Of a stretch of 64,000 bases of DNA, positions 1-63,102 are shown piece by piece (position 1 is the first letter of the stretch; every line of letters starts with the position of its first letter). The translations under genes were made by a program, and so were the position numbers. Source of the DNA: Dehalococcoidia bacterium (lineage in GTDB: Bacteria; Chloroflexota; Dehalococcoidia; Bin125). The notes under the pieces are model-generated. The model saw only the letters and a program-made list of their open reading frames with translations, ran no database searches and was not told where the DNA came from. The DNA is taken from positions 1,110,273 through 1,174,272 of the forward strand of contig OZ247431.1 in assembly GCA_965232875.1 (NCBI GenBank), in the 5' to 3' direction.

Positions 1-46
1 GGTTGGTGCTGCGACTGACGATGTCGGGCATGATGGGGGCTTCAGC
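1..46 (-). pseudogene. Remnant duplicate of the GMC oxidoreductase 3' end; the minus-strand translation ...LHAEAPIMPDIVSRSTN resembles ...LRVADASIMPDIVSCNTN of the intact gene
   Basis: About 36 of 46 nt identical to positions 587-632 (the 3' end of the 540..2063 gene). In-frame continuation into 47..130 is not GMC-like and no long minus-strand ORF is present, so this is a fragment, not a paralog. Confidence 0.4.
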
Positions 47-523
47 ATGAAGCTTAGGTATTGGACCACTCTGTTTGGCGTCATCCTGGCAATCGGAGGG
101 TGCGCGATCGTGTGCCAAGGTGGGGATGAGGTGGAACCGGTGATCGGGCCGTTTCCGGAGCAGGCAGAAGATGTGGAACTCGAAGAGTTGATTGGTCCGA
201 AATACATCCGTGCCGCAGGAGGCGGCTCACTGTGTGGAAGCGATGTCTTTTCTACTTACGCTGGAGCCGCTGTGCCGCACGGCCTGTCCGCGACAAGTGT
301 GTTGCCGGCAGAACTGGTGCAAGTGGTTGAAGAGTTTGGTTGGACGATCGACCAATATCAGCACCGGTGGTTTGGAGAGTATCGTGTGGTACTACTATTG
401 ACTACGGTCGATGAATCAACACAGGCGCTGTTTGCGCATGCATTGGAGTTAAAGCGGCTAGCGCCGGAGGACGGAGATGAGTTCTGGTCGGTCCCAGAGC
501 GACAATTGGCGCGGTCGTGTTGA
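47..523 (+). CDS. Hypothetical lipoprotein (signal peptide with lipobox LAIGGC)
   Basis: 158-aa ORF. N-terminal hydrophobic segment followed by Cys (MKLRYWTTLFGVILAIGGCA). No recognisable family. Sits between the GMC 3'-end remnant and the intact GMC gene. Confidence 0.45.
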   Translation: MKLRYWTTLFGVILAIGGCAIVCQGGDEVEPVIGPFPEQAEDVELEELIGPKYIRAAGGGSLCGSDVFSTYAGAAVPHGLSATSVLPAELVQVVEEFGWTIDQYQHRWFGEYRVVLLLTTVDESTQALFAHALELKRLAPEDGDEFWSVPERQLARSC

Positions 524-539
524 CGGGTGATGTGGACTG

Positions 540-2063
540 TTATTGCAGATCCTCCGCCACGCGTTCGCCGATCATGATGGCGGTCAAGTTGGTGTTGCAG
601 CTGACGATGTCAGGCATGATTGAGGCGTCGGCGACTCTCAGGTGTTCGGTCTGATGGACTCGGCCTCTCTGATCGGTGACGGCCAGCGGGTCGGTCGAGC
701 GACCCATCCGCGCCGTGCCGCAGATATGCCAAGTCGTTGAGGTGGTTCGGCGGACGTAGTCTGCCAGGGCGTTGTCTGACTCCATCACCTCAGGTCTCGG
801 TGCAATCACGCGTTCGGTGAACTGCGCGATTTTGCCCGAGTGCATGATCTCCCAGCAGAGCCGCGCGCCGTCCATCAGCCGGCGCAGATCCTCGGGGTGC
901 GAGGCGTAGTTCATGTCGAGCTGCGGCTGCTCCGACGGGTCTGTCGAGCGCAGCGTCACTGAGCCGCGCGAGAGCGGACGCTGAATCACCGCGCCGATGC
1001 CAAACGACGGATGCTGCCGCGGCGCCTCCGTCAGGCCGCGCACCTGTTCCTCGTCCCAGATCGTCGAGATCGCGAGTTGCATGTCGTTGAACAGATCGGA
1101 GCCGGGCGCGGTGTATCGCACGCCGATCTCGGTGACCACGTCGGGGTCATGCACAACATCGGGCTTGGGGAACGCCTGCACGCCGGTACCGAAGTGATCG
1201 ATCAGGTTCTCGCCGACGCCCGGCAGGGCCACGCGTTGCTTGATTCCGTGAGGCGAGAGCTTCTCCGCCGGACCAATCCCGCTACGCATCAAGATTGCCG
1301 GCGACACTGCCGATCCAGCCGAGACGCAGACGCGGTCGCTGTTGATGACTTCGCTGTCGCTGAGGATCACGCCGTTGACGCGAGCGCCGGAGTCGCCGTC
1401 GAAACTCAGTTTGTCGACCAACACGCCGTGCCGAATGGTCAGATTCTCGCGGTCGCGGATTCCGAGCAGGTAGGCAATGTTGGTTGAGATGCGGTTGCCG
1501 TTGCTGCGATTGCGCGGCCACGGTCCGACGCCGGTCGCATCGGGCAGGTTGTGGTCCCAGACATCGTCGAATCCGTTGCCGCGGCAGGCGTCGTAGAAGG
1601 CGCGCTGCAGCGGTTGCCAGTTTCCGGATGGCTCACGTTCGATCGGAACGGGACCAGATTGCCCGTGGAAGTCGCCGCCTTCAGGATCAGATTCGAGGCG
1701 TCGGTAGTAGGGCAGGACATCCTCGAAGCGCCACTCGTCGCAGCCGTGCGCGACCCACGACTCGAAGTCGCCGGGTACGCCGCGCAGAGCGATCGTCCCG
1801 TTGACCGCCGACGAACCGCCCATCACCTTGCCCCGATGCAGCGGAAACTCGCGACCATGCCGGGCATTGGCCTGGAATCCCCAGTCGTGATCGCGCCACG
1901 AGACCCATGGCTTGAGCAGGTCACGAGGCATGTCCTCGACGCGGGTGTAATCCGGCCCAGCCTCAAGCAGCAATACCCTCCGATTCGGGTCCTCGGACAA
2001 CCGAGCCGCAATCACCGCTCCCGCCGATCCTGCGCCGATGATGATGTCGTCGTACGTTGCCAT
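540..2063 (-). CDS. GMC-family FAD-dependent oxidoreductase (choline/alcohol dehydrogenase-like)
   Basis: 507 aa. N-terminal Rossmann DIIIGAGSAGAVIAARLSE...VLLLEAG. Typical GMC C-terminal region with active-site His (HICGTARMG). Family-wide similarity. Confidence 0.9.
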   Translation of the reverse strand: MATYDDIIIGAGSAGAVIAARLSEDPNRRVLLLEAGPDYTRVEDMPRDLLKPWVSWRDHDWGFQANARHGREFPLHRGKVMGGSSAVNGTIALRGVPGDFESWVAHGCDEWRFEDVLPYYRRLESDPEGGDFHGQSGPVPIEREPSGNWQPLQRAFYDACRGNGFDDVWDHNLPDATGVGPWPRNRSNGNRISTNIAYLLGIRDRENLTIRHGVLVDKLSFDGDSGARVNGVILSDSEVINSDRVCVSAGSAVSPAILMRSGIGPAEKLSPHGIKQRVALPGVGENLIDHFGTGVQAFPKPDVVHDPDVVTEIGVRYTAPGSDLFNDMQLAISTIWDEEQVRGLTEAPRQHPSFGIGAVIQRPLSRGSVTLRSTDPSEQPQLDMNYASHPEDLRRLMDGARLCWEIMHSGKIAQFTERVIAPRPEVMESDNALADYVRRTTSTTWHICGTARMGRSTDPLAVTDQRGRVHQTEHLRVADASIMPDIVSCNTNLTAIMIGERVAEDLQ

Positions 2064-4867: not shown

Positions 4868-5082
4868 GATTCAGTCCCCGCTGTACGGAGACCCTTGCAA
4901 AACTTCCGAATCCCCTCTCCCCCCCTTGCGGGGGAGATGTCACGGAGTGACAGAGGGGGGGTCGGCTGATGATGACCAGGTGAGGCTCCCGAACAGCGCC
5001 CTCCCTGCCTTCGGCATCTCCCCCGCAAAGGGGGGAGAAGGGGAGTTATTCCAAGGTCTCCGTAGAGCGGGAACTGGAACTG
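4868..5082. repeat. Copy A of a ~200-bp long imperfect palindromic repeat element (nested hairpins)
   Basis: Inner arms CTCCCCCCCTTGCGGGGGAGATG / CATCTCCCCCGCAAAGGGGGGAGAAG. Central palindrome GTCACGGAGTGAC. Outer arms CAGTCCCCGCTGTACGGAGACC / GGTCTCCGTAGAGCGGGAACTG. Near-identical copies at 12352-12535 and 62893-63075. Sits immediately 3' of the CoA-transferase stop. Confidence 0.75.
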
Positions 5083-5169
5083 AAGCCCTTGAAGAACGAT
5101 GGCGCTGATATCGTAGCGACAGTTGACGAGACTGAATTCGCTTCGTCCCGACTAAATCTGGAGTGATGT

Positions 5170-8100
5170 ATGCCGCCGAGTGGATCTGTGTCGCCCGTTT
5201 CCAAGCTGTTGATTGCCAATCGTGGCGAGATTGCGATTCGTGTGGCTCGTGCGGCCTCCGATCTGGGCATTGCCACCGTCTCCGTCTACTCCAAGGACGA
5301 CGCCAGGTCTCTGCACGTTCACGCCGCCGATGAAGCGGTCGAGCTCGATGCGCTGGGCGTCCAGGCATACCTCGACATTGACGGCCTGATTGCGGCCGCG
5401 CAATCGACCGGCTGCGACGCGGTGCATCCCGGTTACGGATTCCTGTCAGAGTCGGCAGAGTTTGCCCGACGCTGCCGAGATGCAAGCATCACCTTCGTCG
5501 GTCCGACAGCGCATCTGCTCGATCTGTTCGGGGACAAGGTCCGCGCCAGGCAGGCTGCGAGAGAAGCCGGCGTGCCGGTGATTGAAGGCTCCGACCAGGC
5601 AGTCACCCTGAGCGAAGCGGTTGACTTCTTCGAGTCGCTGGGCGAAGACGCGGCGGTGATGCTCAAGGCGGTAGCAGGCGGCGGCGGACGAGGCTCGCGG
5701 GCAGTCACCGACATCAACGAAATGGAGGCCGCCTGGGAGCGCTGCGAGTCCGAGGCGCGCATGTCGTTCGGCTCCGGCGCGCTGTACATCGAGCAGCTCA
5801 TTCCCCGCGCCCGACACATCGAAGTGCAGGTGATTGGAGACTTGCACGGCGGTGTCGGTCACCTGTGGGAGCGCGAGTGCTCGGTCCAGCGGCGATTCCA
5901 GAAGATCGTGGAGATCGCGCCGGCGCCACACCTGGAAACATCCACGCGCGAAGCCATCGTCGAGGCGGCCGTACGTATCGCACGCGACGTGGGCTACTCG
6001 TCTCTGGGCACGTTCGAGTTCCTGTTGGACGCCTCAGACGGCTCGAATGACGCCTTCTTCTTCCTCGAGGCGAACGCGCGACTACAGGTCGAGCACACCG
6101 TGACCGAACAGGTCACCGGCGTCGACCTGGTCCAGTCGCAACTGCGAGCTGCGCAAGGCGCATCAATCTCCGACCTCGGCCTCGACGATCCGTCCTGGCT
6201 GCGTCCACGTGGGTTCGCGATTCAGACCCGCGTCAACATGGAAACACTCACGCCCGACGGCTCGGTGCGTCCGGCGTCAGGCACGCTCAAGGCTTATGAG
6301 GCGCCCTCTGGGCCGGGTGTGCGCACCGACGGCTTCGGCTACGTCGGCTACCAGACATCTACTTCGTTCGACTCGCTGCTGGCGAAGGTGATCGCGCACG
6401 CTCCGGCGCCAAGATTCGAGGATGCGTTGACGCGCTCGTTGCGCGCGCTGTCCGAGTTCCGGATTGAAGGCGTCGCGACGAACATCCCGTTCCTCACCAA
6501 CGTGCTGGAGCATGCCGACCTCGTCGAAGGTCGTGTCCACACTCGCTGGGTCGACGAGCAGATGGCCGAGTTGGCGACGTTCAATGGCGCGCAGCGCGTG
6601 CGCTATCTGCAAGCGGAAGCACCGACGGCCGACAGCGGGTTCGCCGGCGCGCGCGTTGATTCGCGTGATCCATTGGCGCTCTTTCAGCACGATCAGGAAG
6701 TCAAGCAGCAGCAGTCCTTGCAGGTCGTCGAGGAAGAGGCGCCGGACTTGACCGGTCCGGAAGGCTCAATCGGTCTGCCCGCGCCGATCCAGGGCACGAT
6801 CGTTTCGATCATGGTCGAAGAGGGTCAGGAAGTGCGGAAGGGCCAGGACCTCGTCGCGATGGAAGCGATGAAGATGGAGCATGTGATCTCCGCCGACCGC
6901 GACGGGATCGTCAAGGCGTTGGGCTGCTCCATCGGCGATGTGATCCGTGAAGGCTTCCCACTCGTCTTCATCCTCGAGGCGGAAGTCTCGGTCGAGGCGA
7001 TCGGTGACGACGACCTGATCGACCCCGATTTCATCCGACCCGACCTACAGGAAAACTACGACCGACACGCCTACACGCTGGACGAAAATCGGCCCATCGC
7101 TGTGTCCAAACGTCGCGGACGCGGCTACCGCATGCCGCGCGAGAACATTGAACAACTCGTCGATCCGGGTTCATTCCAGGAATACTGGCCGCTGATCGTG
7201 GCGCGTCAGCACCAGCGCAATACCGACGAGCAACTGAGAGAGAACACACCTGCCGACGGTCTGCTCGCCGGTACGGCGACGATCAATGGCGACCTGTTTG
7301 ACGATGAGCGGGACGCCCGCGCGATTGTCGTGCATTACGACTACACGGTGCTCGCGGGCACGCAGGGCGGTCGCAATCACTACAAGCAGGACCGCATGTT
7401 TGAAATGGCGCGCCGCTTCAACTTCCCCATTGTCTTCTACACCGAGGGTGGGGGCGGAAGGCCCGGCGACGACCGGACCGGTCCCGGCGTGGCGTTCGAT
7501 ACCTACACGTTCACGCAGTTTTCGAAGCTCTCGGGCCAGGTGCCGCTGGTCGGTGTGACCAATGGTCGCTGTTTCGCCGGCAACACGGCGCTGCTTGCCT
7601 GCTGCGACGTGATCATCGCCACTGAAGGCTCAACCGTCGCGATGGGCGGTCCGGCAATGATCGAGGGCGGCGGCCTCGGCATCTATACGCCGGAAGAGGT
7701 CGGACCGATGTCGTTCCAGGTCCCGAATGGTGTGGTCGACATCCTCTGCAAGGATGAGGAAGAGGCGACCGATATCGCCAAGAAGTATCTGAGCTACTTC
7801 CAGGGACCGATCAAGGAATGGACCGCGCCCGATCAGCGCCGTCTGCGCCACATCGTGCCTGAGAACCGGTTGCGTCTCTACGACATGAAAGAGATCATCC
7901 ACACGATCGCCGATGAAGGCTCGGTGCTGGAGATTCGCGAGAAGTTCGGGATCGGGATCATCACTGCGTTCATCCGCGTCGAGGGACATGCGATCGGCGT
8001 GATCGCGAACAACCCGCATCACCTGGCCGGCGCGATCGACTCTGACGGCTCGGACAAGGGCGCGAGATTCCTGCAGCTCTGCGACGCGTTCGATATCCCC

Positions 8101-8592
8101 GTGCTCAGTCTGATGGATTGCCCCGGCATGATGGTCGGCCCCGATGTCGAAGCGACGGCGCTGGTGCGTCACTGTGCACGGATGTTCAACACCGGGGCCA
8201 ACTTGAGTGTGCCGCTGTTCGGCGTGGTCGTGCGCAAGGCGTATGGACTCGGAGTCCAGGCGATGTGCGGGGCCAGCGCGCTGGTCGGATTCTTCACTGT
8301 CGCCTGGCCGACGGCCGAGTTCGCCGGCATGAACATCGAAGGTTCAGTGAAGCTTGGATATCGCAAAGAACTCATCGCGATCGAGGACCCCGAGGAGCGG
8401 ATCGAGACCTACGAGCACATGGTGGCGCGAGCGTACGACAACGCCAAAGCAGTCAACTCAGCCGCCGGCGGTGGTCTCGATGATGTGATCGATCCCGCAG
8501 ACACGCGCGAGTGGATTGCCAACGGCCTCAAGCGCCTCCCGCCAACGCCAGAGCGCACTGGCAAGAAGCGTCCCTACATCGATACGTGGTAA
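5170..8592 (+). CDS. Single-chain multidomain biotin-dependent acyl-CoA carboxylase (BC - BCCP - CT)
   Basis: 1140 aa. N-terminal biotin carboxylase (LIANRGEIAIRVARAASDLGI..., ATP-grasp). Biotinyl domain with the EAMKMEH biotinylation motif near residue 560. C-terminal ~520-aa carboxyltransferase domain (propionyl-CoA carboxylase beta-like, GGGRPGDD). RBS GGAGTGA precedes the start. Confidence 0.9.
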   Translation: MPPSGSVSPVSKLLIANRGEIAIRVARAASDLGIATVSVYSKDDARSLHVHAADEAVELDALGVQAYLDIDGLIAAAQSTGCDAVHPGYGFLSESAEFARRCRDASITFVGPTAHLLDLFGDKVRARQAAREAGVPVIEGSDQAVTLSEAVDFFESLGEDAAVMLKAVAGGGGRGSRAVTDINEMEAAWERCESEARMSFGSGALYIEQLIPRARHIEVQVIGDLHGGVGHLWERECSVQRRFQKIVEIAPAPHLETSTREAIVEAAVRIARDVGYSSLGTFEFLLDASDGSNDAFFFLEANARLQVEHTVTEQVTGVDLVQSQLRAAQGASISDLGLDDPSWLRPRGFAIQTRVNMETLTPDGSVRPASGTLKAYEAPSGPGVRTDGFGYVGYQTSTSFDSLLAKVIAHAPAPRFEDALTRSLRALSEFRIEGVATNIPFLTNVLEHADLVEGRVHTRWVDEQMAELATFNGAQRVRYLQAEAPTADSGFAGARVDSRDPLALFQHDQEVKQQQSLQVVEEEAPDLTGPEGSIGLPAPIQGTIVSIMVEEGQEVRKGQDLVAMEAMKMEHVISADRDGIVKALGCSIGDVIREGFPLVFILEAEVSVEAIGDDDLIDPDFIRPDLQENYDRHAYTLDENRPIAVSKRRGRGYRMPRENIEQLVDPGSFQEYWPLIVARQHQRNTDEQLRENTPADGLLAGTATINGDLFDDERDARAIVVHYDYTVLAGTQGGRNHYKQDRMFEMARRFNFPIVFYTEGGGGRPGDDRTGPGVAFDTYTFTQFSKLSGQVPLVGVTNGRCFAGNTALLACCDVIIATEGSTVAMGGPAMIEGGGLGIYTPEEVGPMSFQVPNGVVDILCKDEEEATDIAKKYLSYFQGPIKEWTAPDQRRLRHIVPENRLRLYDMKEIIHTIADEGSVLEIREKFGIGIITAFIRVEGHAIGVIANNPHHLAGAIDSDGSDKGARFLQLCDAFDIPVLSLMDCPGMMVGPDVEATALVRHCARMFNTGANLSVPLFGVVVRKAYGLGVQAMCGASALVGFFTVAWPTAEFAGMNIEGSVKLGYRKELIAIEDPEERIETYEHMVARAYDNAKAVNSAAGGGLDDVIDPADTREWIANGLKRLPPTPERTGKKRPYIDTW
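8541..8592. repeat. Left copy of a 52-bp imperfect direct repeat (last 17 codons plus stop of the carboxylase gene)
   Basis: GCCAACGCCAGAGCGCACTGGCAAGAAGCGTCCCTACATCGATACGTGGTAA. Matches 9654-9705 at 48/52 positions. Confidence 0.8.
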
Positions 8593-8596
8593 TCGC

Positions 8597-9649
8597 TACA
8601 TGCACTGGCTGGCATTTCTGGCGCTATTGACCACGATCATCTTCGGGGCTTGCGCCGACGATGAGCCGCCCGATGATTCGACCCCTCGTCCTGAGCGTCA
8701 AGAGACTGATTCCCCCAGTACCCCACCTACGATCGATGAGATCGAAGGTGAGACGCTCGCCGACATCATGCGCATACTCTATCGGCGCCAGATGAGATCG
8801 CATCCCACAGTCTGTGCGTATGTGCTGGGTACGGGCGTCTACGGTGTGAGCCAAGCGCTTGACCGAGACACGCACCCAGCGCAGATAGTGGCTGACCTTG
8901 TGGAGGGTTGGACAGGAAGCATCTGGATCGGCGAGTTTGGGGACTATGAACTCTCCTGGACGGAGCTGCAGCGAATTGTGCTGGTCGCTCCAGACGGGGT
9001 CTCCCTGCCGCATCAGGGCTTCTATGACACAATCGGCGACGCCCTGGAATTCAAGTACATCCGAGGTAAGTTTGAGCTGACTATGATCGGACGTCTCTTC
9101 GATTGTAGCGATCCGAACGGCGCCTATCCCGATGGAATCGGCGAACTCGCTCAGCGTCACAGCGAAGATGAGGGGTTGTTCGTCTATGACGTTGAGGAAG
9201 TGGTCGACATTGAACACGGTACAAATAGTCACGTTGATCAGAGGTACTCGATCCTGGAGGTCGCCGATCACAATGATTGGCCTCCTGCGGTTGATCTGCC
9301 TGTGTTGGCCGACCTGTTGACGGAAACGGCGCGCGAGCATTGGTCATCGGAATTCGTCTGTGTGAGTGTGACGAGGCGGCCGGTCGATTCGGGCGAAGCC
9401 GGGACTGGTTTGACGGCTGACTCGCCGCTGCCCGAAGCATTCCTGCGAATTTTCGACGAGCTCCGATTCGACCCTGAGCAGGCGACACTGCTGCTGATCG
9501 GGACACGCAACATTGTCCTCGCCTGGGTCGAGTCGTATAACGACGCCGGCAGAGTGACTGCAGCCGAGTTCGTCAAGAGCGAAGACGGCAATTGGTCCGA
9601 ACGGACTTGGGTGTCCATGTATGGATGTGGCCCACTGGGCAGTGAGTAG
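8597..9649 (+). CDS. Hypothetical lipoprotein (MHWLAFLALLTTIIFGAC lipobox), 350 aa
   Basis: ORF with signal peptide plus Cys. Start placed at the ATG just after the carboxylase stop; the track's upstream start overlaps the carboxylase frame. Appears somewhat less GC-rich by eye. Flanked by the 52-bp direct repeats. Confidence 0.6.
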   Translation, partial: YMHWLAFLALLTTIIFGACADDEPPDDSTPRPERQETDSPSTPPTIDEIEGETLADIMRILYRRQMRSHPTVCAYVLGTGVYGVSQALDRDTHPAQIVADLVEGWTGSIWIGEFGDYELSWTELQRIVLVAPDGVSLPHQGFYDTIGDALEFKYIRGKFELTMIGRLFDCSDPNGAYPDGIGELAQRHSEDEGLFVYDVEEVVDIEHGTNSHVDQRYSILEVADHNDWPPAVDLPVLADLLTETAREHWSSEFVCVSVTRRPVDSGEAGTGLTADSPLPEAFLRIFDELRFDPEQATLLLIGTRNIVLAWVESYNDAGRVTAAEFVKSEDGNWSERTWVSMYGCGPLGSE

Positions 9650-9653
9650 CGTC

Positions 9654-9705
9654 GCCAACGCCGGGGCGCACCGGCAAGAAGCGTCCCTACATCGATACGT
9701 GGTAA
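9654..9705. repeat. Right copy of the 52-bp direct repeat; encodes ...PTPGRTGKKRPYIDTW* in frame, i.e. a second copy of the carboxylase C-terminus
   Basis: GCCAACGCCGGGGCGCACCGGCAAGAAGCGTCCCTACATCGATACGTGGTAA. Confidence 0.8.
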
Positions 9706-9839: not shown

Positions 9840-10475
9840 GTGAAGGGTTGGGTCGGCTGGCTCGGCCGCAGCATTGGAGTTGCGGCGCTCCTGCTGGTGT
9901 TGGGGCTGACCCTGCCGCAACCCTCTAGCGACGCCGCGCAGGGCACGAAGTCGTGGGCGTCAAGCACGGTGTACTTCGAGCGCAAAGGAGACTGGTCCAG
10001 CGTTCCGAACAGCTATCGGAATGCCGTGCTTCGAGCGGACAACGAATGGGCCGACAACACCCGCTGGAATCCAATCATCACCGCGAGCCCGGCACACAAC
10101 GGCATCTACTGGGGTAATGACGAAGATCCATGGGCCTCTCGAAGTTGCACTCCGCCAGTTTCAACTTCCGATGCGTTCGGCAAGGAATGTAAGCGATTCG
10201 TCCCTGGGAGGATCACTAACTCGGAGATCATGTTGAATGCGGCCAGGTCATGGGATAGCGATCGTGTTCAGGGTGTCATGACTCACGAGCTTGGGCACTC
10301 AGGAGGCTTGACCCACGATCCGGTTTACACAGCAGAGATCCCGAGCACCTCGACCTGTCAGTCCACGAATCAGCATCGTTGGACGATGTGCTCGAAGTTC
10401 TTGGACGACAACGCATCCTGGGCGGCTAGCACCGAACGGCATGATCGCGATGATGCCGACGCGATGTACCCGTAG
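9840..10475 (+). CDS. Secreted metzincin-type zinc metalloprotease (snapalysin/M7-like small neutral protease)
   Basis: Signal peptide. Extended zinc-binding motif HELGHSGGLTHD (HExxHxxGxxH). C-terminal Met-turn-like ADAMYP. 211 aa. Confidence 0.75.
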   Translation: MKGWVGWLGRSIGVAALLLVLGLTLPQPSSDAAQGTKSWASSTVYFERKGDWSSVPNSYRNAVLRADNEWADNTRWNPIITASPAHNGIYWGNDEDPWASRSCTPPVSTSDAFGKECKRFVPGRITNSEIMLNAARSWDSDRVQGVMTHELGHSGGLTHDPVYTAEIPSTSTCQSTNQHRWTMCSKFLDDNASWAASTERHDRDDADAMYP

Positions 10476-10517: not shown

Positions 10518-11060
10518 ATGTCTACCTCCAGACTCAACCGACTGACAGGAGCTAGGTGGCTTCGGATCGGGATCTTGGTGATCGTCGTTGCCGCGGCCAC
10601 GGCCGTCTGGCTGACTCGATCAGGGGAGCGCCCGGTGCTCGCGATCGCGCACATGTCGCTTAACGAGATCGAGTCGCAATTGTATGCGGAGCTCAAGGCG
10701 ATTCACGGCCGCGAAGTTTGCGGCATCGAGGAAACTTCAACGCCAGACGCCAGCGGCTACAGCAGCAACCTCGTCTCGGAGCACGAGAACGGCCTACCGT
10801 CCCAGCGAGTCATCGAATGGCTCGAAGAGTCTGAGCACAGCTTCGACCAGGTCGACGACTATCAATTGTCCGGGTCAAGCGTGGTGTTTCTCGCCTATGC
10901 AGAAGACCGCAATGAGGACAGCCTCGTCACGTTGGTTAACGGTGATCAGGTACATGCCAACGTCGTGGTGGTGCACGCTCTGTCGGGCGGGAACAGAGGC
11001 GAGGATCGCTGGGAGATCGTTCACGGTGCTTCGTACTGGATTTGCGATCCGTTGGAGTAA
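10518..11060 (+). CDS. Hypothetical N-terminally membrane-anchored protein
   Basis: 180-aa ORF with one N-terminal TM helix (WLRIGILVIVVAAATAVWL). No recognisable family. Confidence 0.5.
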   Translation: MSTSRLNRLTGARWLRIGILVIVVAAATAVWLTRSGERPVLAIAHMSLNEIESQLYAELKAIHGREVCGIEETSTPDASGYSSNLVSEHENGLPSQRVIEWLEESEHSFDQVDDYQLSGSSVVFLAYAEDRNEDSLVTLVNGDQVHANVVVVHALSGGNRGEDRWEIVHGASYWICDPLE

Positions 11061-11213
11061 CGAACCCAGCCCAAGCGGCCAGCGGCGAGGAGACTCGTTG
11101 CTGGGCGGTTATCGTTGAGAGCCGATCGGACATTCGACCGAAGTGTCGATCTCGTCCGAGGTGTCGGAGAAGATGCGGCGAACTGCCGCAGCGACTCCGC
11201 CTGTGTTGGAAGG

Positions 11214-11720
11214 ATGTCTTTCACGGTGCGCCGCCTGCTTGCTAGTTTGTTCGCGGGCGCAATCGTTGCAACTTTGAGCGCTGCCTGCGGCGCTGCCGAC
11301 GACCGAGGGCAGAACTCGGTCGACCAAGCCCAGTTCAGCTTGGTCGGCCTCGATGGACACGAGGCGACGCAAGCGGTCTACGAGCGCGTGGGCGAACGGT
11401 ACGGCCTCGATTGCGAGCAGAGTTGGGAAGCGTCGCTCGATGTCACCGGACTCGATCCCAACTACCCCGAAGCGAGCGGTCTAGCGGACGGTTCGGAGCC
11501 GACGCCGGAGATCCTCGACGCGATTCGAGAGGCGGGTAGCCATCCCGACTCCTTCGAGCACTGGTACGTGACATCGACACGTGCGGTGTTCGCGTCGTTC
11601 GAGATTGAAGAGGGCTGGAACGCGCTGCCGGAAGTGATTCAGGTCTTGTGGCTCGGCTACGACGCGGAAGGCACGCCGCGCTGGGGCGCCGATTACGGAG
11701 CGTTGCTGGGGCCATGTTGA
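11214..11720 (+). CDS. Hypothetical lipoprotein (MSFTVRRLLASLFAGAIVATLSAAC)
   Basis: ORF with lipoprotein signal. Start moved to the internal ATG that carries the signal peptide. No family assignment. Confidence 0.5.
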   Translation: MSFTVRRLLASLFAGAIVATLSAACGAADDRGQNSVDQAQFSLVGLDGHEATQAVYERVGERYGLDCEQSWEASLDVTGLDPNYPEASGLADGSEPTPEILDAIREAGSHPDSFEHWYVTSTRAVFASFEIEEGWNALPEVIQVLWLGYDAEGTPRWGADYGALLGPC

Positions 11721-11748: not shown

Positions 11749-11825
11749 TGGCGACCCCGAGCGGATTCGAACCGCCGGTCTCCACCTTGACAGGGTGGCG
11801 TGTTAGGCCGCTACACCACGGGGCC
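11749..11825 (-). tRNA. tRNA-Asp (anticodon GUC)
   Basis: Reverse complement GGCCCCGTGGTGTAGCGGCCTAACACGCCACCCTGTCAAGGTGGAGACCGGCGGTTCGAATCCGCTCGGGGTCGCCA folds as a cloverleaf: 7-bp acceptor stem, GTGT/ACAC D-stem, CCACC/GGTGG anticodon stem with loop CTGTCAA, T-arm GGTTCGAATCC, encoded CCA. Confidence 0.85.
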
Positions 11826-12351: not shown

Positions 12352-12535
12352 TTTGGTTGATTCCCAGTCCCCGCTTCACGGAGGCCTCTGCAAAACTCCC
12401 CTTCTCCCCCCTTGCGGGGGAGATGTCACGGAGTGACAGAGGGGGGGCGGCTGATGACGACCAGATAGGGCTCCTGAACAGCGGACCCCCCTCTGCCTTC
12501 GGCATCTCCCCCGCAAGGGGGGAGAAGGGATTCGA
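12352..12535. repeat. Copy B of the ~200-bp palindromic repeat element (lacks the right outer arm)
   Basis: CAGTCCCCGCTTCACGGAGGCC...CCTTGCGGGGGAGATGTCACGGAGTGACAGAGGGGGGG...GGCATCTCCCCCGCAAGGGGGGAGAAGG. Confidence 0.75.
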
Positions 12536-52191: not shown

Positions 52192-53850
52192 TCAATCTGG
52201 TCTCCAGCGGGCGTCTTGGCCTCTGGGTTTGGCGACGATCTGGAGGCGCCCGGTTGACCTGGTGGGTGTGGGGACTTGTTGGAGGAGTTCGTGCATGTAG
52301 CGGTCGGCGTCGAGGAGGTCGTCGTTCCGTTTGCGGGGTTTGGGATCGGGATCGTCGCCGGTTTGCCAGACGTACTCTTGCATGCGCTTGGGGAAACAGG
52401 TGAGGTTCTCGGTGTAGAACGATGCGGGCGGGTCGGCGGCGAGCGGTTCGTGGACGAGGTTGACGCCGTAGAGCACGGAGCCGGGGTTGCCGGCGGCGGG
52501 GACGACGTGGATGCCCTGTCGTCGTTGGTGGTCGATCCAGGCGGATTGGGAGCGGTCGGCGGCCCAGCGGATGGGACCGAACTTGCGCTGGCATTGACGC
52601 TGCCATTGTTCGAGTCGCTGGATGACGCCGGGGCCTCGGTCTTCGAACTCGGCGAGTCGGATCAGGGTGAAAGGGTGTTGGGAGGAGGTGGGAGGTGTGC
52701 TGCGGCTGGGGGACGGCTGGCGGGTGGTGTCGTTGATGGGCTTGGGCGGTTCGTGATTCCTGCCTGCGCAGGAATGACGGAGGGGGGAGACCCCCCCCCC
52801 TCTGCCTGCGGCATCTCCCCCCGCAAGGGGGGGAGAGAGGAATGGGGGGTGGGTGAGGCCTGCGATGATGCCGGCGGTGTGGTGGGCGGTGTCGGTTTGG
52901 CCGCCGAAGTCGAGGCCGCCGATGATGTGGGTGAACGGTGGGAGGGGGCCTGACCAGCAGTGGCGGTCGGGGTCGAAGTCGGGGTAGACGCGGCCCATGA
53001 GGGCGTTCCAGCGGCCGTCGATGAAGCGGTCGCGCCATTGTGGGGGCAGGAGGGCGTGGTTGAGCTGGGCGTAGTTGTCGGGCAGGTGGGGGTTGTCGGC
53101 GATTTTGGCGGGGATGAAGGCGACCTGTCCGCTGGCTTCGTGGAGGGCGTCTTCGGGTAGTTCACGGTGCAGGAACCAGCGCTGGAACCAGCCGGGCCAG
53201 GGGTTGGAGGCGGCGACGAACCAGCGCTGCGGCTGGGCCGGGTGGCGCAGGCGGGTGAGCAGCATCAGGGCGGCGTCCTCGTCGACCTGACCGGCTTCGT
53301 CGATCAGGACGGCGCCGTACTGCTGGGAGCCGAGGCCCTGCCAGTCGGAGAGGTGGCGGAAGTTGACGGTTGAGTGTTGGTCGCGGGGCCAGCCGGGTAG
53401 CCGCAGCTGGACGAGCGAGGTCGGGGCCTGCTGGCGTCGCTGGATCAGTTCGGGCGGGCAGACCTGGAAGAACTCTTTCATGGTGGTGGAGGAGAGGTCG
53501 GAGAGGTGGTGTCGGGCGACGAGGATGTTGTCGCCGGGGTGCATGAGCGCGGCGTCGATGGCGAGTTCGGCGATGGCGCGGGTTTTGCCCCCGCCCATGG
53601 CGCCGCCGTAACCGAGCAGGGTGAGGCCGGGATCCGGAGCATCGATCAGCGCTTCGTACAGCTCGTGCTGCCGCTCCGTCGGTCGAAAACTCCGACCTGC
53701 GCGCAAATCCGCCAGCCGCCTCAACGTTCGTCTCCGCATAGTCACTGCTCGCATCGCATCAGATCCTCTCTCGCCACGGCGAACGCCCGTCGCTTCGTTC
53801 AGATCAGCAACAGTACATATGAGCGGATACCCTTCGCCACTCCTCCTCAC
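52192..53850 (-). CDS. Phage terminase large subunit-like protein (ATPase plus RNase-H-like nuclease) with an in-frame repeat-element insertion
   Basis: Walker A GYGGAMGGGKT. Walker B AVLIDEAGQV. Nuclease motifs HIIGGLDFGG and RKRNDDLLDADRYMHE. Residues ~335-395 (PFLSPPLAGGDAAGRGGGVSPLRHSCAGRNHEPPKPINDTTRQPSPSRS) are encoded by repeat DNA at 52752-52850. Confidence 0.75.
   Translation of the reverse strand: MRRSGEGYPLICTVADLNEATGVRRGERGSDAMRAVTMRRRTLRRLADLRAGRSFRPTERQHELYEALIDAPDPGLTLLGYGGAMGGGKTRAIAELAIDAALMHPGDNILVARHHLSDLSSTTMKEFFQVCPPELIQRRQQAPTSLVQLRLPGWPRDQHSTVNFRHLSDWQGLGSQQYGAVLIDEAGQVDEDAALMLLTRLRHPAQPQRWFVAASNPWPGWFQRWFLHRELPEDALHEASGQVAFIPAKIADNPHLPDNYAQLNHALLPPQWRDRFIDGRWNALMGRVYPDFDPDRHCWSGPLPPFTHIIGGLDFGGQTDTAHHTAGIIAGLTHPPFLSPPLAGGDAAGRGGGVSPLRHSCAGRNHEPPKPINDTTRQPSPSRSTPPTSSQHPFTLIRLAEFEDRGPGVIQRLEQWQRQCQRKFGPIRWAADRSQSAWIDHQRRQGIHVVPAAGNPGSVLYGVNLVHEPLAADPPASFYTENLTCFPKRMQEYVWQTGDDPDPKPRKRNDDLLDADRYMHELLQQVPTPTRSTGRLQIVAKPRGQDARWRPD
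52752..52850. repeat. Chimeric repeat inside the terminase ORF: CGTGATTCCTGCCTGCGCAGGAATGACGG hairpin unit fused to the right half of the ~200-bp palindromic element (GCCTGCGGCATCTCCCCCCGCAAGGGGGGGAGAG); includes C10 and G7 homopolymers
   Basis: Direct comparison with 4868-5082 and 2184-2346. Confidence 0.7.
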
Positions 53851-53948
53851 CCCCCATCATGCGGACCTCCGTCAACTCAGCTACTGAAAAAGAATATGTG
53901 TTCGCATACAGTCAACCTCAGAGACGCGACCACCGAACGGATCAACCC

Positions 53949-54398
53949 ATGACCATCCCGCAAACCGCCCCTCAACCCATCCATCAGGCCTCCCCGCAGG
54001 CCCCACCTCAGGCCTCCCCGCAGGCCATACCTCAGGCCTCCCCGCAGGCCTCCCCGCAGGCCATCCATCAGCGCTATTGGCAGATCGCCAACAACCCCGA
54101 GGAACGTGGCTACGTCCAGGTCCGCGCTCTCGATTCCCTCGCCCGGCTCCTCGACCTCTTCCCCCGTCCCGCCCACCCCGGCTTCTTCGCCTGCGACCCC
54201 GAACCCCCGCCTCCCGCGATCCCGAACGGCCCCTACGCGGTCGCCAGCATGAGCGACGAAGACCTCGATGCCCTGATCGACAGAGAAGAAGCCGCCGCCA
54301 ACACCCAGGCCGACAAAGAAGCGGAAGCCAACACTGAATCCGAGCCCGATGACGAAGACGAGGAAGGATCCGGCCGGGATGAGGACGAACCTCCCTAA
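53949..54398 (+). CDS. Hypothetical protein with (A/I)(S/P)PQA tandem repeats and an acidic C-terminal tail
   Basis: ORF divergent from the terminase gene. Start chosen at MTIPQTAPQ; the track gives 53859. The repeat is encoded by ~24-bp tandem units at 53975-54069. C-terminus EPDDEDEEGSGRDEDEPP. Coding status uncertain. Confidence 0.4.
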   Translation: MTIPQTAPQPIHQASPQAPPQASPQAIPQASPQASPQAIHQRYWQIANNPEERGYVQVRALDSLARLLDLFPRPAHPGFFACDPEPPPPAIPNGPYAVASMSDEDLDALIDREEAAANTQADKEAEANTESEPDDEDEEGSGRDEDEPP

Positions 54399-54583: not shown

Positions 54584-54612
54584 TTGGCTGGTTCGTGATT
54601 CCTGCCTGCGCA
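54584..54612. repeat. Hairpin repeat unit CGTGATTCCTGCCTGCGCAGGAATGACGG (same as 52752-52780) 3' of purB
   Basis: Exact 29-bp match to the copy inside the terminase gene. Confidence 0.7.
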
Positions 54613-54653
54613 GGAATGACGGAGTGGGGGGATCGCGGGTGGTAGGGCTCTTG

Positions 54654-62892: not shown

Positions 62893-63075
62893 ACTCCTCA
62901 TCCCGAGTCCCCTCTCCCCCCTAACGGGGGGAGATGTCACGGAGTGACAGAGGGGGGGTCGGCTGATGATGACCAGATCGGGCTCCCGAACAGCGGACCC
63001 CCCCTCTGCCTTCGGCATCTCCCCCGCAAGGGGGGAGAAGGAGAGTTCTTCAAGGGTCTCCGCTGAGCGGGGACT
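62893..63075. repeat. Copy C of the ~200-bp palindromic repeat element, immediately 3' of tpiA
   Basis: CTCTCCCCCCTAACGGGGGGAGATGTCACGGAGTGACAGAGGGGGGGTCGGCTGATGATGACCAG...GGCATCTCCCCCGCAAGGGGGGAGAAGG...GGGTCTCCGCTGAGCGGGGACTGG. Confidence 0.75.
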
Positions 63076-63102
63076 GGGAGATTCGATTCTTGGGAAACCA
63101 TC

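What the first reader, a model, noticed from the sequence alone, without database searches (positions are those of the whole stretch)
8541..9705. 52-bp imperfect direct repeats of the carboxylase 3' end flank a 1.06-kb lipoprotein gene insertion
The final 17 codons plus stop of the carboxylase gene (8541-8592) reappear at 9654-9705 with 48/52 identity. The second copy still encodes ...PTP(G/E)RTGKKRPYIDTW*. Exactly one gene lies between the copies: a lipoprotein ORF (8597-9649) that looks somewhat lower in GC. This is the signature of insertion by site-specific recombination into a gene 3' end with reconstitution of the terminus, as tRNA-targeting islands do, but here the cargo is a single gene and no integrase is present. 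The same architecture recurs at the left window edge (see the next finding), which argues for a recurrent mechanism rather than coincidence.
Basis: seen in the sequence. Interest (0 to 1): 0.62.

Follow-up and report, generated by a model that had tools for sequence, protein, structure and literature searches.

The report
Recombination scar beside a carboxylase gene
The last 53 bases of a carboxylase gene really are repeated after the neighbouring lipoprotein gene, but the repeat most likely marks where two alternative versions of a highly variable gene slot were spliced together, not the footprint of a new mobile element.

Summary
Window 8540-8592 and 9653-9705 are a 53-bp direct repeat, 50/53 identical, and one lipoprotein gene (8600-9649) lies between them.

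In about 25 related Dehalococcoidia species the carboxylase stop is followed after about 25 nt by tRNA-Asp. That gap is a cassette slot:
- Type A alleles hold the lipoprotein family without any second tail (11 loci, down to 42% aa identity).
- Type B alleles hold other small secreted-protein genes (X) after a single tail.
- Only four close genomes (window, L001, L003, L092) are "AB": carboxylase-tail-lipoprotein-tail-X. All four have the identical junction TAG-CGT|CGCCAACG.

Tail1 plus what follows is colinear with type A. Tail2 plus what follows is colinear with type B. The lipoprotein gene is therefore older than the repeat.

The best reading is that one illegitimate join, anchored by homologous recombination in the carboxylase gene, merged an A allele with a B allele. 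The repeats have recombined since.

Similar short copies of neighbouring gene ends occur in the same region (GMC oxidoreductase twice, with different endpoints, and tRNA-Asp). No integrase, inverted repeats, RNA structure or viral copy was found.

This is ordinary genome plasticity, nicely resolved. A recombinase-driven cassette system is not excluded.

The parts
5170..8592 (+). Fused biotin carboxylase-BCCP-carboxyltransferase gene (1140 aa). It is the conserved anchor gene on the left of the cassette slot.
   Evidence: Pfam domains. Syntenic in all Dehalococcoidia loci.
8540..8592 (+). Tail copy 1: the functional last 17 codons plus stop of the carboxylase gene.
8600..9649 (+). Lipoprotein gene lipo349, an ORFan family with a lipobox FGAC. 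It is mosaic. 8580-9200 resembles L006, L001 and L003. 9261-9620 resembles L006 and L007. The last ~30 nt resemble L001 and L003.
   Evidence: No Pfam, NCBIfam or PHROG match.
9621..9652 (+). 3' end of the lipoprotein gene that is specific to AB genomes (…GCGPLGSE*), plus CGT. The unique new junction lies at 9652|9653. A recombination breakpoint against the L006-like part lies at the conserved GGTGTCCATGTATGG, around 9636.
   Evidence: alignment. Identical junction in L001, L003 and L092.
9653..9705 (+). Tail copy 2: a non-coding pseudo-3'-end of the carboxylase gene. It is the first 53 nt of a block that is colinear with lipoprotein-less (type B) alleles.
   Evidence: window 9655-9807 matches L005 10823-10974; L003 11937-12574 matches L004 10821-11457.
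9840..10475 (+). X gene 1: 211-aa secreted protein with weak metzincin-like hits. Homologues follow the carboxylase gene in L033 and L034. A remnant is present in L005.
10518..11060 (+). X gene 2: 180-aa membrane-anchored ORFan. The family is also in the slot in L001, L003, L004 (fragmented), L005, L040 and L032.
11115..11720 (+). X gene 3: small lipoprotein (201-aa ORF; the likely start is ATG 11215). It is a homologue of the 169-aa gene that comes first after tail 2 in L001, L003, L004 and L092.
11749..11825 (-). tRNA-Asp(GTC), the conserved right border of the slot. In about 25 relatives it lies 22-65 nt from the carboxylase stop.
2..46 (+). Right part of a pseudo-copy of the GMC oxidoreductase 3' end. 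It matches 588-632 at 82%. The complete copy is about 80-95 nt in L003 and L092.
47..523 (+). 158-aa lipoprotein gene lying between the GMC pseudo-end and the real GMC gene. This is the same architecture as the finding. It is a 30% paralogue of the neighbouring 169-aa gene.
540..2063 (-). GMC oxidoreductase gene, the conserved anchor of the second slot.

Best explanation
The 53-bp repeat is a recombination scar in a hypervariable cassette slot. It is not an attachment site.

Shown by the data:
- Ancestrally the carboxylase stop codon and the 3' end of tRNA-Asp are about 25 nt apart.
- Different lineages carry alternative occupants of this gap. Type A carries the lipoprotein lipo349. Type B carries other small secreted-protein genes (X). 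Both types are old.
- The AB arrangement is young, has a single origin, and is a chimera of an A block and a B block.

Inferred:
- In a recent ancestor of four closely related genomes, DNA of one allele type recombined with a chromosome of the other type. This was probably DNA taken up from a relative.
- One end was resolved by ordinary homologous recombination in the conserved carboxylase gene. The other end was resolved by a single illegitimate join. That join connected the base 3 nt after the lipoprotein stop codon to position -53 of the resident carboxylase gene.
- This is recombination of the homology-facilitated illegitimate type. The product keeps an intact carboxylase gene, the lipoprotein gene, a 53-nt pseudo-end, and then the X genes.
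- The two tails have since served as short substrates for homologous recombination. That gives gene conversion between copies, swapping of the downstream X block, and probably precise loss of the lipoprotein gene.
- The same process explains the short pseudo-ends of the GMC oxidoreductase gene and of tRNA-Asp next to other single-gene cassettes nearby.

The direction of the event (A donor into B recipient, or the reverse) is unknown.
For: 1. Ancestral state. In about 25 species the carboxylase stop lies 22-65 nt from tRNA-Asp.

2. Type A is old and has no repeat. lipo349 homologues lie directly after the carboxylase gene in L006, L007, L002, L013, L084-L087, L083, L017 and L020 (90-42% aa identity). 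The intergenic DNA after them shows no similarity to the tail (local-alignment shuffle test on 9 of the 11 loci, p = 0.18-0.95; L086 and L087 were judged by eye).

3. Type B is old. X-family genes follow a single tail in L004, L005 and L040, and in larger arrays in L032-L036.

4. The AB allele is a chimera. Tail1 plus its downstream sequence equals type A (window TAA-TCGCTACATG…, as in L006). Tail2 plus its downstream sequence equals type B (window as in L005; L001/L003/L092 as in L004).

5. There is one new junction, TAG-CGT|CGCCAACG. It is identical in window, L001, L003 and L092.

6. Homologous exchange at this locus is pervasive.
- L003 and L004 share a ~2.3-kb tract of 94-99% identity on a 70-82% background. 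The tract is contiguous across the tail in L004, which has no lipoprotein gene.
- The window's lipoprotein and carboxylase 3' end are mosaics of L006-like and L001/L003-like segments.
- Trees from three flanking genes place AB genomes in both subclades: ((L003_AB,(L005_B,L001_AB)),(L007_A,(L006_A,window_AB))). Type 0 L016 sits inside an A clade.

7. The tails recombine. Copies within a genome co-vary: 3 of the 4 window-versus-L001 differences in tail2 are the same as in tail1 (hypergeometric P = 0.003). L092 tail2 is identical to L003 tail1 and to the L004 tail.

8. Recurrence has variable endpoints. The GMC pseudo-end is ~80-95 nt in window/L003/L092 and ~52 nt in L002, and the inserted genes differ. 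A tRNA-Asp 3' remnant of ~17-20 nt follows the 169-aa gene in L001/L003/L004 (p = 0.006-0.009, and it is positionally homologous to the real junction in the window).

9. No signs of a mobile element were found.

10. The proposed mechanism is documented in the literature. Touzain et al. 2010 (PMC2884548) describe illegitimate recombination assisted by homology, and variable segments flanked by direct repeats, as read.
Against: - The native downstream sequence of the A allele that donated the …GCGPLGSE* lipoprotein end was not found. Microhomology at the junction therefore cannot be verified. At most about 2 nt (CG) is suggested by comparison with L002.
- For the sister case at the GMC slot, the predicted parental allele (158-aa lipoprotein gene next to GMC without the pseudo-end) was not found. 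The only other homologue sits next to IS fragments elsewhere.
- At least three events in 12 kb duplicate less than 100 nt of a gene end next to a single lipoprotein gene. For random illegitimate joins that is many. Survivorship of short duplications is an inferred explanation, not a shown one.
- Natural competence of these uncultured bacteria is unknown.
- Because the locus is so mosaic, the history (single origin, and the direction of L004 and L005 as ancestral or as deletion derivatives) cannot be resolved rigorously with eight close genomes.
Confidence: 0.6

Rival explanations
1. The lipoprotein gene is the cargo of a minimal integrative cassette that a tyrosine or serine recombinase, encoded elsewhere, inserted into the 3' end of the carboxylase gene. 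The cassette brought a replacement 53-bp gene end (attL/attR), as tRNA-targeting islands and icd-targeting prophages do.
For: - Direct repeats made of the target gene's end, with the gene kept intact.
- Precise single-copy alleles in relatives (L004, L005).
- The architecture recurs at the GMC gene and at tRNA-Asp, a classical integrase target. A partial tRNA 3' end lies between cassettes, as in additive islands and tycheposon-containing islands (bioRxiv 10.1101/2020.12.28.424599 read).
- The junction is identical in genomes with different downstream X blocks.
Against: - The lipoprotein gene occupies the same position in 11 loci without a second tail and is older than the repeat.
- There is no recombinase in the insert or its neighbourhood.
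- No copy of the gene or of the tail was found in viral contigs.
- All family members whose context could be examined, and all hits among the loci held, lie downstream of the carboxylase gene.
- The two GMC events have different endpoints, and the four duplicated segments share no evident core (by eye).
- The left border of the 181-aa cassette in L001 falls inside the 3' end of the 211-aa gene rather than at a defined site.
Confidence: 0.13
2. This is an integrase-free cassette mobilised by homologous recombination. Recombination between the two tails pops out a circle carrying the lipoprotein gene and one tail. RecA can reinsert that circle, by a single Campbell-type crossover in the 53-bp tail, into any related chromosome that has a carboxylase gene. 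The tails therefore act as portable homology.
For: - The same junction module sits in front of two different X blocks (window versus L001/L003/L092).
- Tail haplotypes are shuffled between position 1 and position 2, and copies co-vary within genomes.
- Single-tail alleles have the matching X blocks.
- The longest perfect run between the window's two tails is 33 nt (positions 21-53), about the minimal length for RecA-dependent recombination reported for E. coli (threshold as cited in PMC2884548).
Against: - It does not explain the first origin of the junction. An illegitimate join is still needed.
- Double-crossover exchange of flanking DNA explains the same patterns.
- No circular form can be seen in assemblies.
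- 53 bp is an inefficient substrate.
Confidence: 0.15
3. This is a local tandem duplication. A segment running from position -53 of the carboxylase gene to just past the lipoprotein gene was duplicated in tandem, and the second lipoprotein copy was later replaced or lost.
For: Tandem duplication is the commonest spontaneous rearrangement (own knowledge). The junction (end of unit joined to start of unit) has the expected form. At the GMC slot the two flanked genes are paralogues (30% identity).
Against: Sequence after tail2 is not homologous to the lipoprotein gene. It is colinear with type B alleles that have a single tail. Paralogues at 30% identity are far older than tails that are 82-98% identical.
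Confidence: 0.04
4. The second copy is kept because it has a function of its own, for example an RNA structure, a terminator or a translated peptide. Alternatively it is an assembly artefact.
For: Most substitutions in tail2 fall on what would be third codon positions in the carboxylase frame.
Against: - Folding is no better than for shuffled sequences (z = +0.18, -0.96, +1.44, -0.55).
- There is no Rfam match and no terminator-like site.
- Tail2 is out of frame with the lipoprotein ORF and lies behind its stop codon.
- The third-position pattern is explained by conversion from the coding copy.
- Four independent assemblies share the junction.
Confidence: 0.03

Closest known systems
Homology-facilitated illegitimate recombination (HFIR; 'illegitimate recombination assisted by homology'), described in Acinetobacter, Pseudomonas stutzeri and Streptococcus pneumoniae (de Vries & Wackernagel 2002; Meier & Wackernagel 2003; Prudhomme et al. 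2002; as summarised in PMC2884548)
   Same: One side of the new DNA is anchored in a conserved gene that shows clear homologous-recombination tracts. The other side is a single junction without evident homology. The result is the addition of foreign or allelic genes next to the anchor.
   Different: The mechanism is inferred from comparative data only. Competence is unknown in these bacteria. Here the illegitimate join fell inside the recipient's copy of the anchor, so a short piece of the anchor gene is duplicated rather than recipient DNA being deleted. Microhomology at the join could not be verified.
Small variable segments flanked by direct repeats in bacterial genomes (Touzain et al. 2010, Genome Biol 11:R45, PMC2884548)
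   Same: This is a kilobase-scale presence/absence polymorphism flanked by direct repeats. Empty alleles exist in relatives, it is enriched for membrane or surface proteins, and no mobile element is involved.
   Different: Most repeats in that survey are shorter than 30 bp. Here they are 53-95 nt and consist of the 3' end of the neighbouring conserved gene. The parental alleles of the composite can be identified.
Integrative elements that target the 3' end of a gene and carry a replacement end: tRNA-targeting genomic islands, tycheposons (bioRxiv 10.1101/2020.12.28.424599), and phage 21/e14 in icd of E. coli (own knowledge)
   Same: Direct repeats are made of the target gene's 3' end, and the target gene is kept intact. 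Partial tRNA copies lie between stacked cassettes next to a tRNA gene.
   Different: There is no integrase or remnant of one. The insert is a single gene of 0.5-1.1 kb. The cargo also occurs at the same place without the repeat. Endpoints vary between events.
Flexible genomic islands (additive and replacement types) of marine bacteria such as Alteromonas and Prochlorococcus (own knowledge; papers listed but not read, except 10.1101/2020.12.28.424599)
   Same: A fixed chromosomal slot between conserved genes, next to a tRNA gene, holds different surface-related genes in closely related lineages. Alleles are exchanged by homologous recombination in the flanks.
   Different: The slot is very small (0-4 genes, 0-3 kb). 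The composite allele retains a datable junction scar.
Integron gene cassettes
   Same: Single promoterless-looking genes are stacked in one orientation, each followed by a repeated sequence.
   Different: There is no attC-like hairpin, no integron integrase and no attI. The repeats are pieces of the flanking housekeeping genes.

Membership tests
Site-specific integrative element targeting a gene 3' end | Insert flanked by direct repeats (attL/attR) that include the 3' end of the target gene, with the target gene left intact | tested here: met
   53-nt repeat, 50/53 identical. The carboxylase ORF is intact.
Site-specific integrative element targeting a gene 3' end | Integrase or recombinase gene, or a recognisable remnant, within or beside the insert | tested here: not met
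   The only gene between the repeats is the lipoprotein gene, which has no Pfam, NCBIfam or PHROG match. Neighbouring genes in the window and in annotated relatives include no recombinase, apart from an unrelated IS110 in L001 upstream of the carboxylase gene. A recombinase acting in trans elsewhere in the genome could not be tested.
Site-specific integrative element targeting a gene 3' end | Cargo always comes together with both att copies, and relatives without the element have the empty site | tested here: not met
   Empty-site-like alleles exist (L004, L005). However, 11 loci carry the lipoprotein gene at the same place with no second tail.
Site-specific integrative element targeting a gene 3' end | Same endpoint or core in independent insertions into the same target | tested here: not met
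   The two independent duplications of the GMC gene end cover about 52 nt (L002) and about 93 nt (window/L003/L092). For the carboxylase tail only one event is known.
Site-specific integrative element targeting a gene 3' end | Element found in other contexts, in viruses, or as an excised circle | tested here: not met
   The close relatives found by sequence search all lie downstream of the carboxylase gene. The searches used do not reach distant family members. Nothing was found in viral contigs. Circles cannot be seen in assemblies.
Transposon or insertion sequence with target-site duplication | Terminal inverted repeats, a transposase and a short target-site duplication (own knowledge: usually 2-14 bp) | tested here: not met
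   There are no inverted repeats at the insert ends and no transposase. The duplication is 53 bp.
Integron cassette | attC imperfect palindrome at the 3' end of the cassette, and an integron integrase with attI | tested here: not met
   Tail regions fold no better than shuffled sequences. No integrase lies nearby.
Illegitimate or homology-facilitated illegitimate recombination scar between alleles | A single novel junction, with each side colinear with a different pre-existing allele | tested here: met
   The left side equals type A (L006-like). The right side equals type B (L005- or L004-like) and starts 53 nt before the carboxylase stop.
Illegitimate or homology-facilitated illegitimate recombination scar between alleles | Evidence of homologous recombination in the anchor gene | tested here: met
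   There is a 94-99% tract between L003 and L004 in the carboxylase 3' 2 kb on a 70-82% background. Window identity profiles are mosaic.
Illegitimate or homology-facilitated illegitimate recombination scar between alleles | No homology, or only a few nt of microhomology, at the illegitimate junction | tested here: inconclusive
   The parental A-type sequence downstream of this lipoprotein allele is not available. Comparison with L002 suggests at most a CG overlap.
Illegitimate or homology-facilitated illegitimate recombination scar between alleles | DNA uptake (competence) or another route for allelic DNA | not testable with these tools
   These are uncultured MAGs, and only 20-64 kb per genome is available here.
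Tandem duplication | The second unit is homologous to the first over its whole length | tested here: not met
   Genes after tail2 are unrelated to the lipoprotein gene.

The most novel reading that the evidence does not exclude
These sponge-type Dehalococcoidia may possess a recurrent process, lacking an integrase or using a recombinase in trans, that adds and removes single lipoprotein or secreted-protein genes at the 3' ends of conserved genes (carboxylase, GMC oxidoreductase, tRNA-Asp). Short duplicated gene ends of 20-95 nt would serve as portable recombination sites. This would amount to a minimal gene-cassette system built from housekeeping gene tails.
Probability: 0.15. Interest if true: 0.6.

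Novelty: new member of a known kind. Interest (0 to 1): 0.3.

Why it matters
This is a clean natural example in which both parental alleles and the recombinant are still present among related uncultured species. It shows how a gene can be added next to a housekeeping gene without any mobile element, and how the resulting short repeat then makes the gene easy to lose or exchange.

The slot carries only clade-specific lipoproteins and secreted proteins that are mosaic and highly divergent. That suggests diversifying selection on the cell surface of these Dehalococcoidia, which by their MAG names probably come from sponges.

For annotation, it warns that 'att-like' repeats of a gene's end do not by themselves indicate an integrative element.

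If the recurrence turned out to reflect a dedicated mechanism, it would be a new, very small cassette system. The present evidence does not require that.

Tried and rejected
- Decayed second tail in type A genomes. Local alignment of the DNA after the lipoprotein gene against the genome's own carboxylase end was no better than shuffles (p = 0.18-0.95). By-eye resemblances in L002 and L006 were therefore discarded.
- Structured RNA, terminator or known RNA family in or around the tails. None found. An apparent compensatory A-T to G-C change in a 5-bp hairpin between tail1 and tail2 is not conserved in relatives (read) and was dropped.
- Terminal inverted repeats at the insert ends. None.
- Mobile or viral copies. 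The lipoprotein gene and the tail pattern are absent from viral contigs. The tail pattern is absent from JGI metagenome contigs. That scan gave no extra alleles.
- A partial tRNA-Asp copy after the 180-aa gene in the window (11104-11140). Not significant (p = 0.26), so not claimed. The one after the 169-aa gene in L001/L003/L004 is supported (p = 0.006-0.009, plus positional homology).
- Second exact copies of the first 14 nt of the tRNA 3' end. None.
- A parental allele with the 158-aa lipoprotein gene next to GMC but without the pseudo-end. Not found. Close homologues (P0012, P0013) are in composite loci, and the 49% homologue P0014 lies beside IS5-type transposase fragments in other Chloroflexi contigs.
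- Function of the cassette proteins. No family match, except weak sub-threshold metzincin-like hits for the 211-aa protein.
- Look-ups of the window's own lipoprotein (and P0001, P0006) in the contig index. Not on record.
- A full Pfam screen of the 64-kb window for recombinases was not done, because a trans-acting enzyme could be anywhere in a ~3.3-Mb genome.


Full report
**1. The observation**

Window 8540-8592 and 9653-9705 form a 53-nt direct repeat with 50/53 identity (family D8, E = 6e-16, 0 of 2000 shuffles reach the score).

- Copy 1 is the last 17 codons plus the stop codon of a 1140-aa fused biotin carboxylase-BCCP-carboxyltransferase gene, 5170-8592.
- Copy 2 begins three bases after the stop codon of a 349-aa ORF, 8600-9649. 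That ORF starts with a lipoprotein signal, MHWLAFLALLTTIIFGAC.
- Copy 2 is out of frame with that ORF.
- The insert has 0.555-0.598 GC, against mostly 0.60-0.66 in the carboxylase gene.

**2. What the relatives show**

The window comes from an uncultured Dehalococcoidia lineage. Several relatives have MAG names that, to my knowledge, are of sponge origin. I compared 45 related loci from species-representative genomes, plus contigs that carry homologues of the lipoprotein.

In about 25 species the carboxylase stop codon is followed after only 22-65 nt by the 3' end of a tRNA-Asp gene on the opposite strand. This short gap is a cassette slot with four allele types:

| Type | Content | Loci |
|---|---|---|
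| 0 | Empty gap | about 25 species |
| A | lipo349 family, no second tail | L006, L007, L002, L013, L084-L087, L083, L017, L020 |
| B | Other small secreted-protein genes (X) after a single tail | L004, L005, L040; larger arrays in L032-L036 |
| AB | carboxylase-tail-lipoprotein-tail-X-tRNA | window, L001, L003, L092 |

- In type A the lipoprotein gene follows the carboxylase stop by 7-47 nt. Identity to the window protein runs from 90% down to 42%. A shuffle-controlled local alignment on 9 of the 11 loci gives p = 0.18-0.95 for similarity between the DNA after the lipoprotein gene and the carboxylase tail.
- The X families are 211, 180 and 169/201 aa.
- All four AB genomes have the identical junction …GGCCCACTGGG(C/T)AGTGAG TAG CGT | CGCCAACGCC….

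**3. Anatomy of the AB allele**

Tail 1 and what follows it (TAA-TCGCTACATG-lipoprotein) are colinear with type A, for example L006. Tail 2 and what follows it are colinear with type B:

- After tail 2 the window continues like L005 does after its single tail.
- L001, L003 and L092 continue like L004.

The AB allele therefore has exactly one new junction. It joins the base 3 nt after the lipoprotein stop to position -53 of a carboxylase gene.

The lipoprotein gene is much older than the repeat. It is present without the repeat in lineages whose carboxylase genes are 82-84% identical in DNA. The two tails, by contrast, are 92-98% identical to each other.

**4. Recombination at the locus**

Neighbour-joining trees from three flanking genes agree on ((L003_AB,(L005_B,L001_AB)),(L007_A,(L006_A,window_AB))). 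The L002 group (type A, but including type 0 L016) is the sister group, and L004 (B) lies outside. Allele type therefore does not follow the species tree. Direct evidence of exchange:

- L003 and L004 are 70-82% identical in general but 94-99% identical over the last 2 kb of the carboxylase gene, the tail, and the first 200-300 nt of X. This tract is contiguous in L004, which has no lipoprotein gene.
- The window's lipoprotein gene is a mosaic. Positions 8580-9200 resemble L006, L001 and L003. Positions 9261-9620 resemble L006 and L007 (L001 and L003 only 55-72%). Positions 9621-9705 resemble L001 and L003 (92-96%; L006 42%). The switch falls at a conserved GGTGTCCATGTATGG.
- The last ~400 nt of the window's carboxylase gene are closer to L001, L003 and L004 than to L006, its nearest relative elsewhere.

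The tails themselves take part in this exchange:

- Copies in one genome are more alike than orthologous copies between genomes (window 3 differences, L001 1 difference; window versus L001, 6 and 4 differences).
- Three of the four tail-2 differences between window and L001 are the same changes as in tail 1 (hypergeometric P = 0.003).
- L092 tail 2 is identical to L003 tail 1 and to the single tail of L004, although L092 and L003 are 96.6% identical overall.

**5. Recurrence**

The same kind of structure occurs at least three more times in this 12-kb region.

- *GMC oxidoreductase, window/L003/L092.* Left of the GMC gene (540-2063, minus strand), the window, L003 and L092 have an ~80-95-nt pseudo-copy of the GMC 3' end (window 2-46 = 588-632, 82%; L003 2311-2377 = 2896-2962, 87%). 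A 158-aa lipoprotein gene lies between the copy and the real gene. L001, L005 and L006 have the neighbouring 169-aa gene directly against GMC, which is the 'empty' form.
- *GMC oxidoreductase, L002.* An independent event put a 307-aa lipoprotein gene at the same slot with a different GMC pseudo-end (37 nt at 97%, about 52 nt including the diverged stop-proximal part).
- *tRNA-Asp.* In L001, L003 and L004 a degenerate copy of the last ~17-20 nt of tRNA-Asp, with its 3' flank GAGTTGAG, follows the 169-aa gene and precedes the 181-aa gene. It is positionally homologous to the real gene-tRNA junction in the window (p = 0.006-0.009). The order of the two gene families is reversed between the window (180, then 201) and L001 (169, then 181).
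- *No fixed site.* The left border of the 181-aa block in L001 falls inside the 3' end of the 211-aa gene of window-type alleles. That is not what a fixed attachment site gives.

**6. Tests for a mobile element or a function of the repeat**

- The insert contains no second gene, and the lipoprotein gene has no family match.
- There are no terminal inverted repeats.
- No recombinase lies in the neighbourhood in the window or in annotated relatives.
- Neither the gene nor the tail is found in viral contigs.
- The tail regions fold no better than shuffled sequences, and nothing but the tRNA matches Rfam. No terminator-like site is present.

**7. Explanation**

The most economical reading is that the repeat is the scar of a merger between two alternative alleles of the slot.

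- DNA of one allele type recombined with a chromosome of the other type.
- Homologous recombination in the conserved carboxylase gene resolved one side.
- One illegitimate join resolved the other side. It fell 53 nt inside the resident copy of the anchor gene.
- This is the geometry of 'illegitimate recombination assisted by homology' as summarised by Touzain et al. 2010 (PMC2884548). The same paper shows that kilobase-scale variable segments flanked by direct repeats, often in membrane-protein genes, are a common class of bacterial diversity.

What is shown: the chimeric colinearity, the single shared junction, the greater age of both parental allele types, pervasive homologous exchange, and non-independent evolution of the two tails.

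What is inferred: the mechanism of the join, its direction (A donor into B recipient or the reverse), the role of DNA uptake, and whether L004 and L005 are ancestral type B alleles or secondary deletions between the tails.

Duplications under 100 nt may predominate because longer ones are lost quickly by recombination. That too is inferred.

**8. Rivals**

It would fit the partial tRNA copy, a hallmark of stacked integrations next to tRNA genes (bioRxiv 10.1101/2020.12.28.424599). It is contradicted by the repeat-less type A alleles, the lack of any recombinase or free form, and the variable endpoints.
- *RecA-driven pop-out and Campbell-type reinsertion of a lipoprotein-plus-tail circle.* It would explain the same junction in front of different X blocks and the shuffled tail haplotypes. 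It still needs an initial illegitimate join.
- *Tandem duplication.* Excluded, because the DNA after tail 2 is unrelated to the lipoprotein gene.
- *Functional RNA, or an assembly artefact.* Both are unlikely.

**9. Verdict**

The interpretation as a site-specific insertion of the lipoprotein gene is only partly supported.

The feature is a well-resolved instance of a known kind of genome plasticity, in an uncultured lineage and at a slot for hypervariable surface-protein genes. I score interest at about 0.3.

The most novel reading not excluded is a recurrent cassette mechanism that uses duplicated housekeeping-gene ends. I give it about 15%. It could be tested by genome-wide scans of the complete chromosomes and by long-read population data.

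Noticed in passing
window 4906-5077, 12392-12528, 62903-63077; also 2186-2218/2319-2351, 52742-52790/54584-54632, 21336-21373/40935-40972, 41244-41300/49611-49667: Several families of REP-like palindromic intergenic repeats (for example CCCCTCTCCCCCC…GGGGGGAGA and GATTCCTGCC..GCAGGAATGAC) are scattered through the window and through related loci. In L001 an IS110-family transposase gene (L001 5175-6122) sits in the REP cluster between the CoA-transferase and carboxylase genes.
   Followed up: no
window 53945-54095: A tandem 12-nt repeat (8 or more units) that would encode a Pro/Gln-rich stretch. It lies between two copies of a REP-like element (52742-52790 and 54584-54632).
   Followed up: no
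window 2-46, 47-523, 588-632; L003 2290-2900; L092 9900-10500: A pseudo-copy of the GMC oxidoreductase 3' end (~80-95 nt) and a 158-aa lipoprotein gene were inserted between a 169-aa paralogue and the GMC gene. L001, L005 and L006 have the form without the insert.
   Followed up: yes
L002 508-544 and 1912-1948 (gene 655-1578): An independent duplication of the GMC gene end (37 nt at 97%; different endpoint) flanks a 307-aa lipoprotein gene in a more distant relative.
   Followed up: partly
L001 11640-11668; L003 12520-12548; L004 11405-11430: A degenerate copy of the tRNA-Asp 3' end (GAGTTGAG-CGCCGAGCACCGAACGG) lies between the 169-aa and 181-aa genes. The gene order is reversed relative to the window.
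   Followed up: partly
L003 8847-12200 versus L004 8847-11100: A recent inter-species transfer tract of ~2.3 kb with 94-99% identity on a 70-82% background. It covers the carboxylase 3' end, the tail and the start of the X genes.
   Followed up: yes
L032 17701-18075; L033 16505-16908; L034 16532-16903: Two tRNA-Asp-like copies lie 260-300 nt apart at the far end of a 5-7-kb array of small secreted-protein genes downstream of the carboxylase gene.
   Followed up: no
L042 7218-7270 and 10821-10873: A 50/53 copy of the carboxylase tail lies 3.6 kb upstream of the real one. This probably reflects two carboxylase paralogues in tandem.
   Followed up: no
L084 7776-8831; L085 7472-8536; L013 10839-11963: The lipoprotein homologues are interrupted by stops or frameshifts. 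They may be pseudogenes or long-read assembly errors.
   Followed up: no
L019 11109-11966; L083 9112-9942: In two lineages a ~280-aa protein with an N-terminal helix-turn-helix-like region (weak PHROG regulator hit) occupies the slot next to tRNA-Asp.
   Followed up: no
L088-L091 (gene at 5001-5480): A 49% homologue of the 158-aa lipoprotein lies next to IS5-type transposase fragments (DUF772, DUF4096, DDE_Tnp_1) near contig ends in other Chloroflexi MAGs. That is a different genomic context.
   Followed up: no
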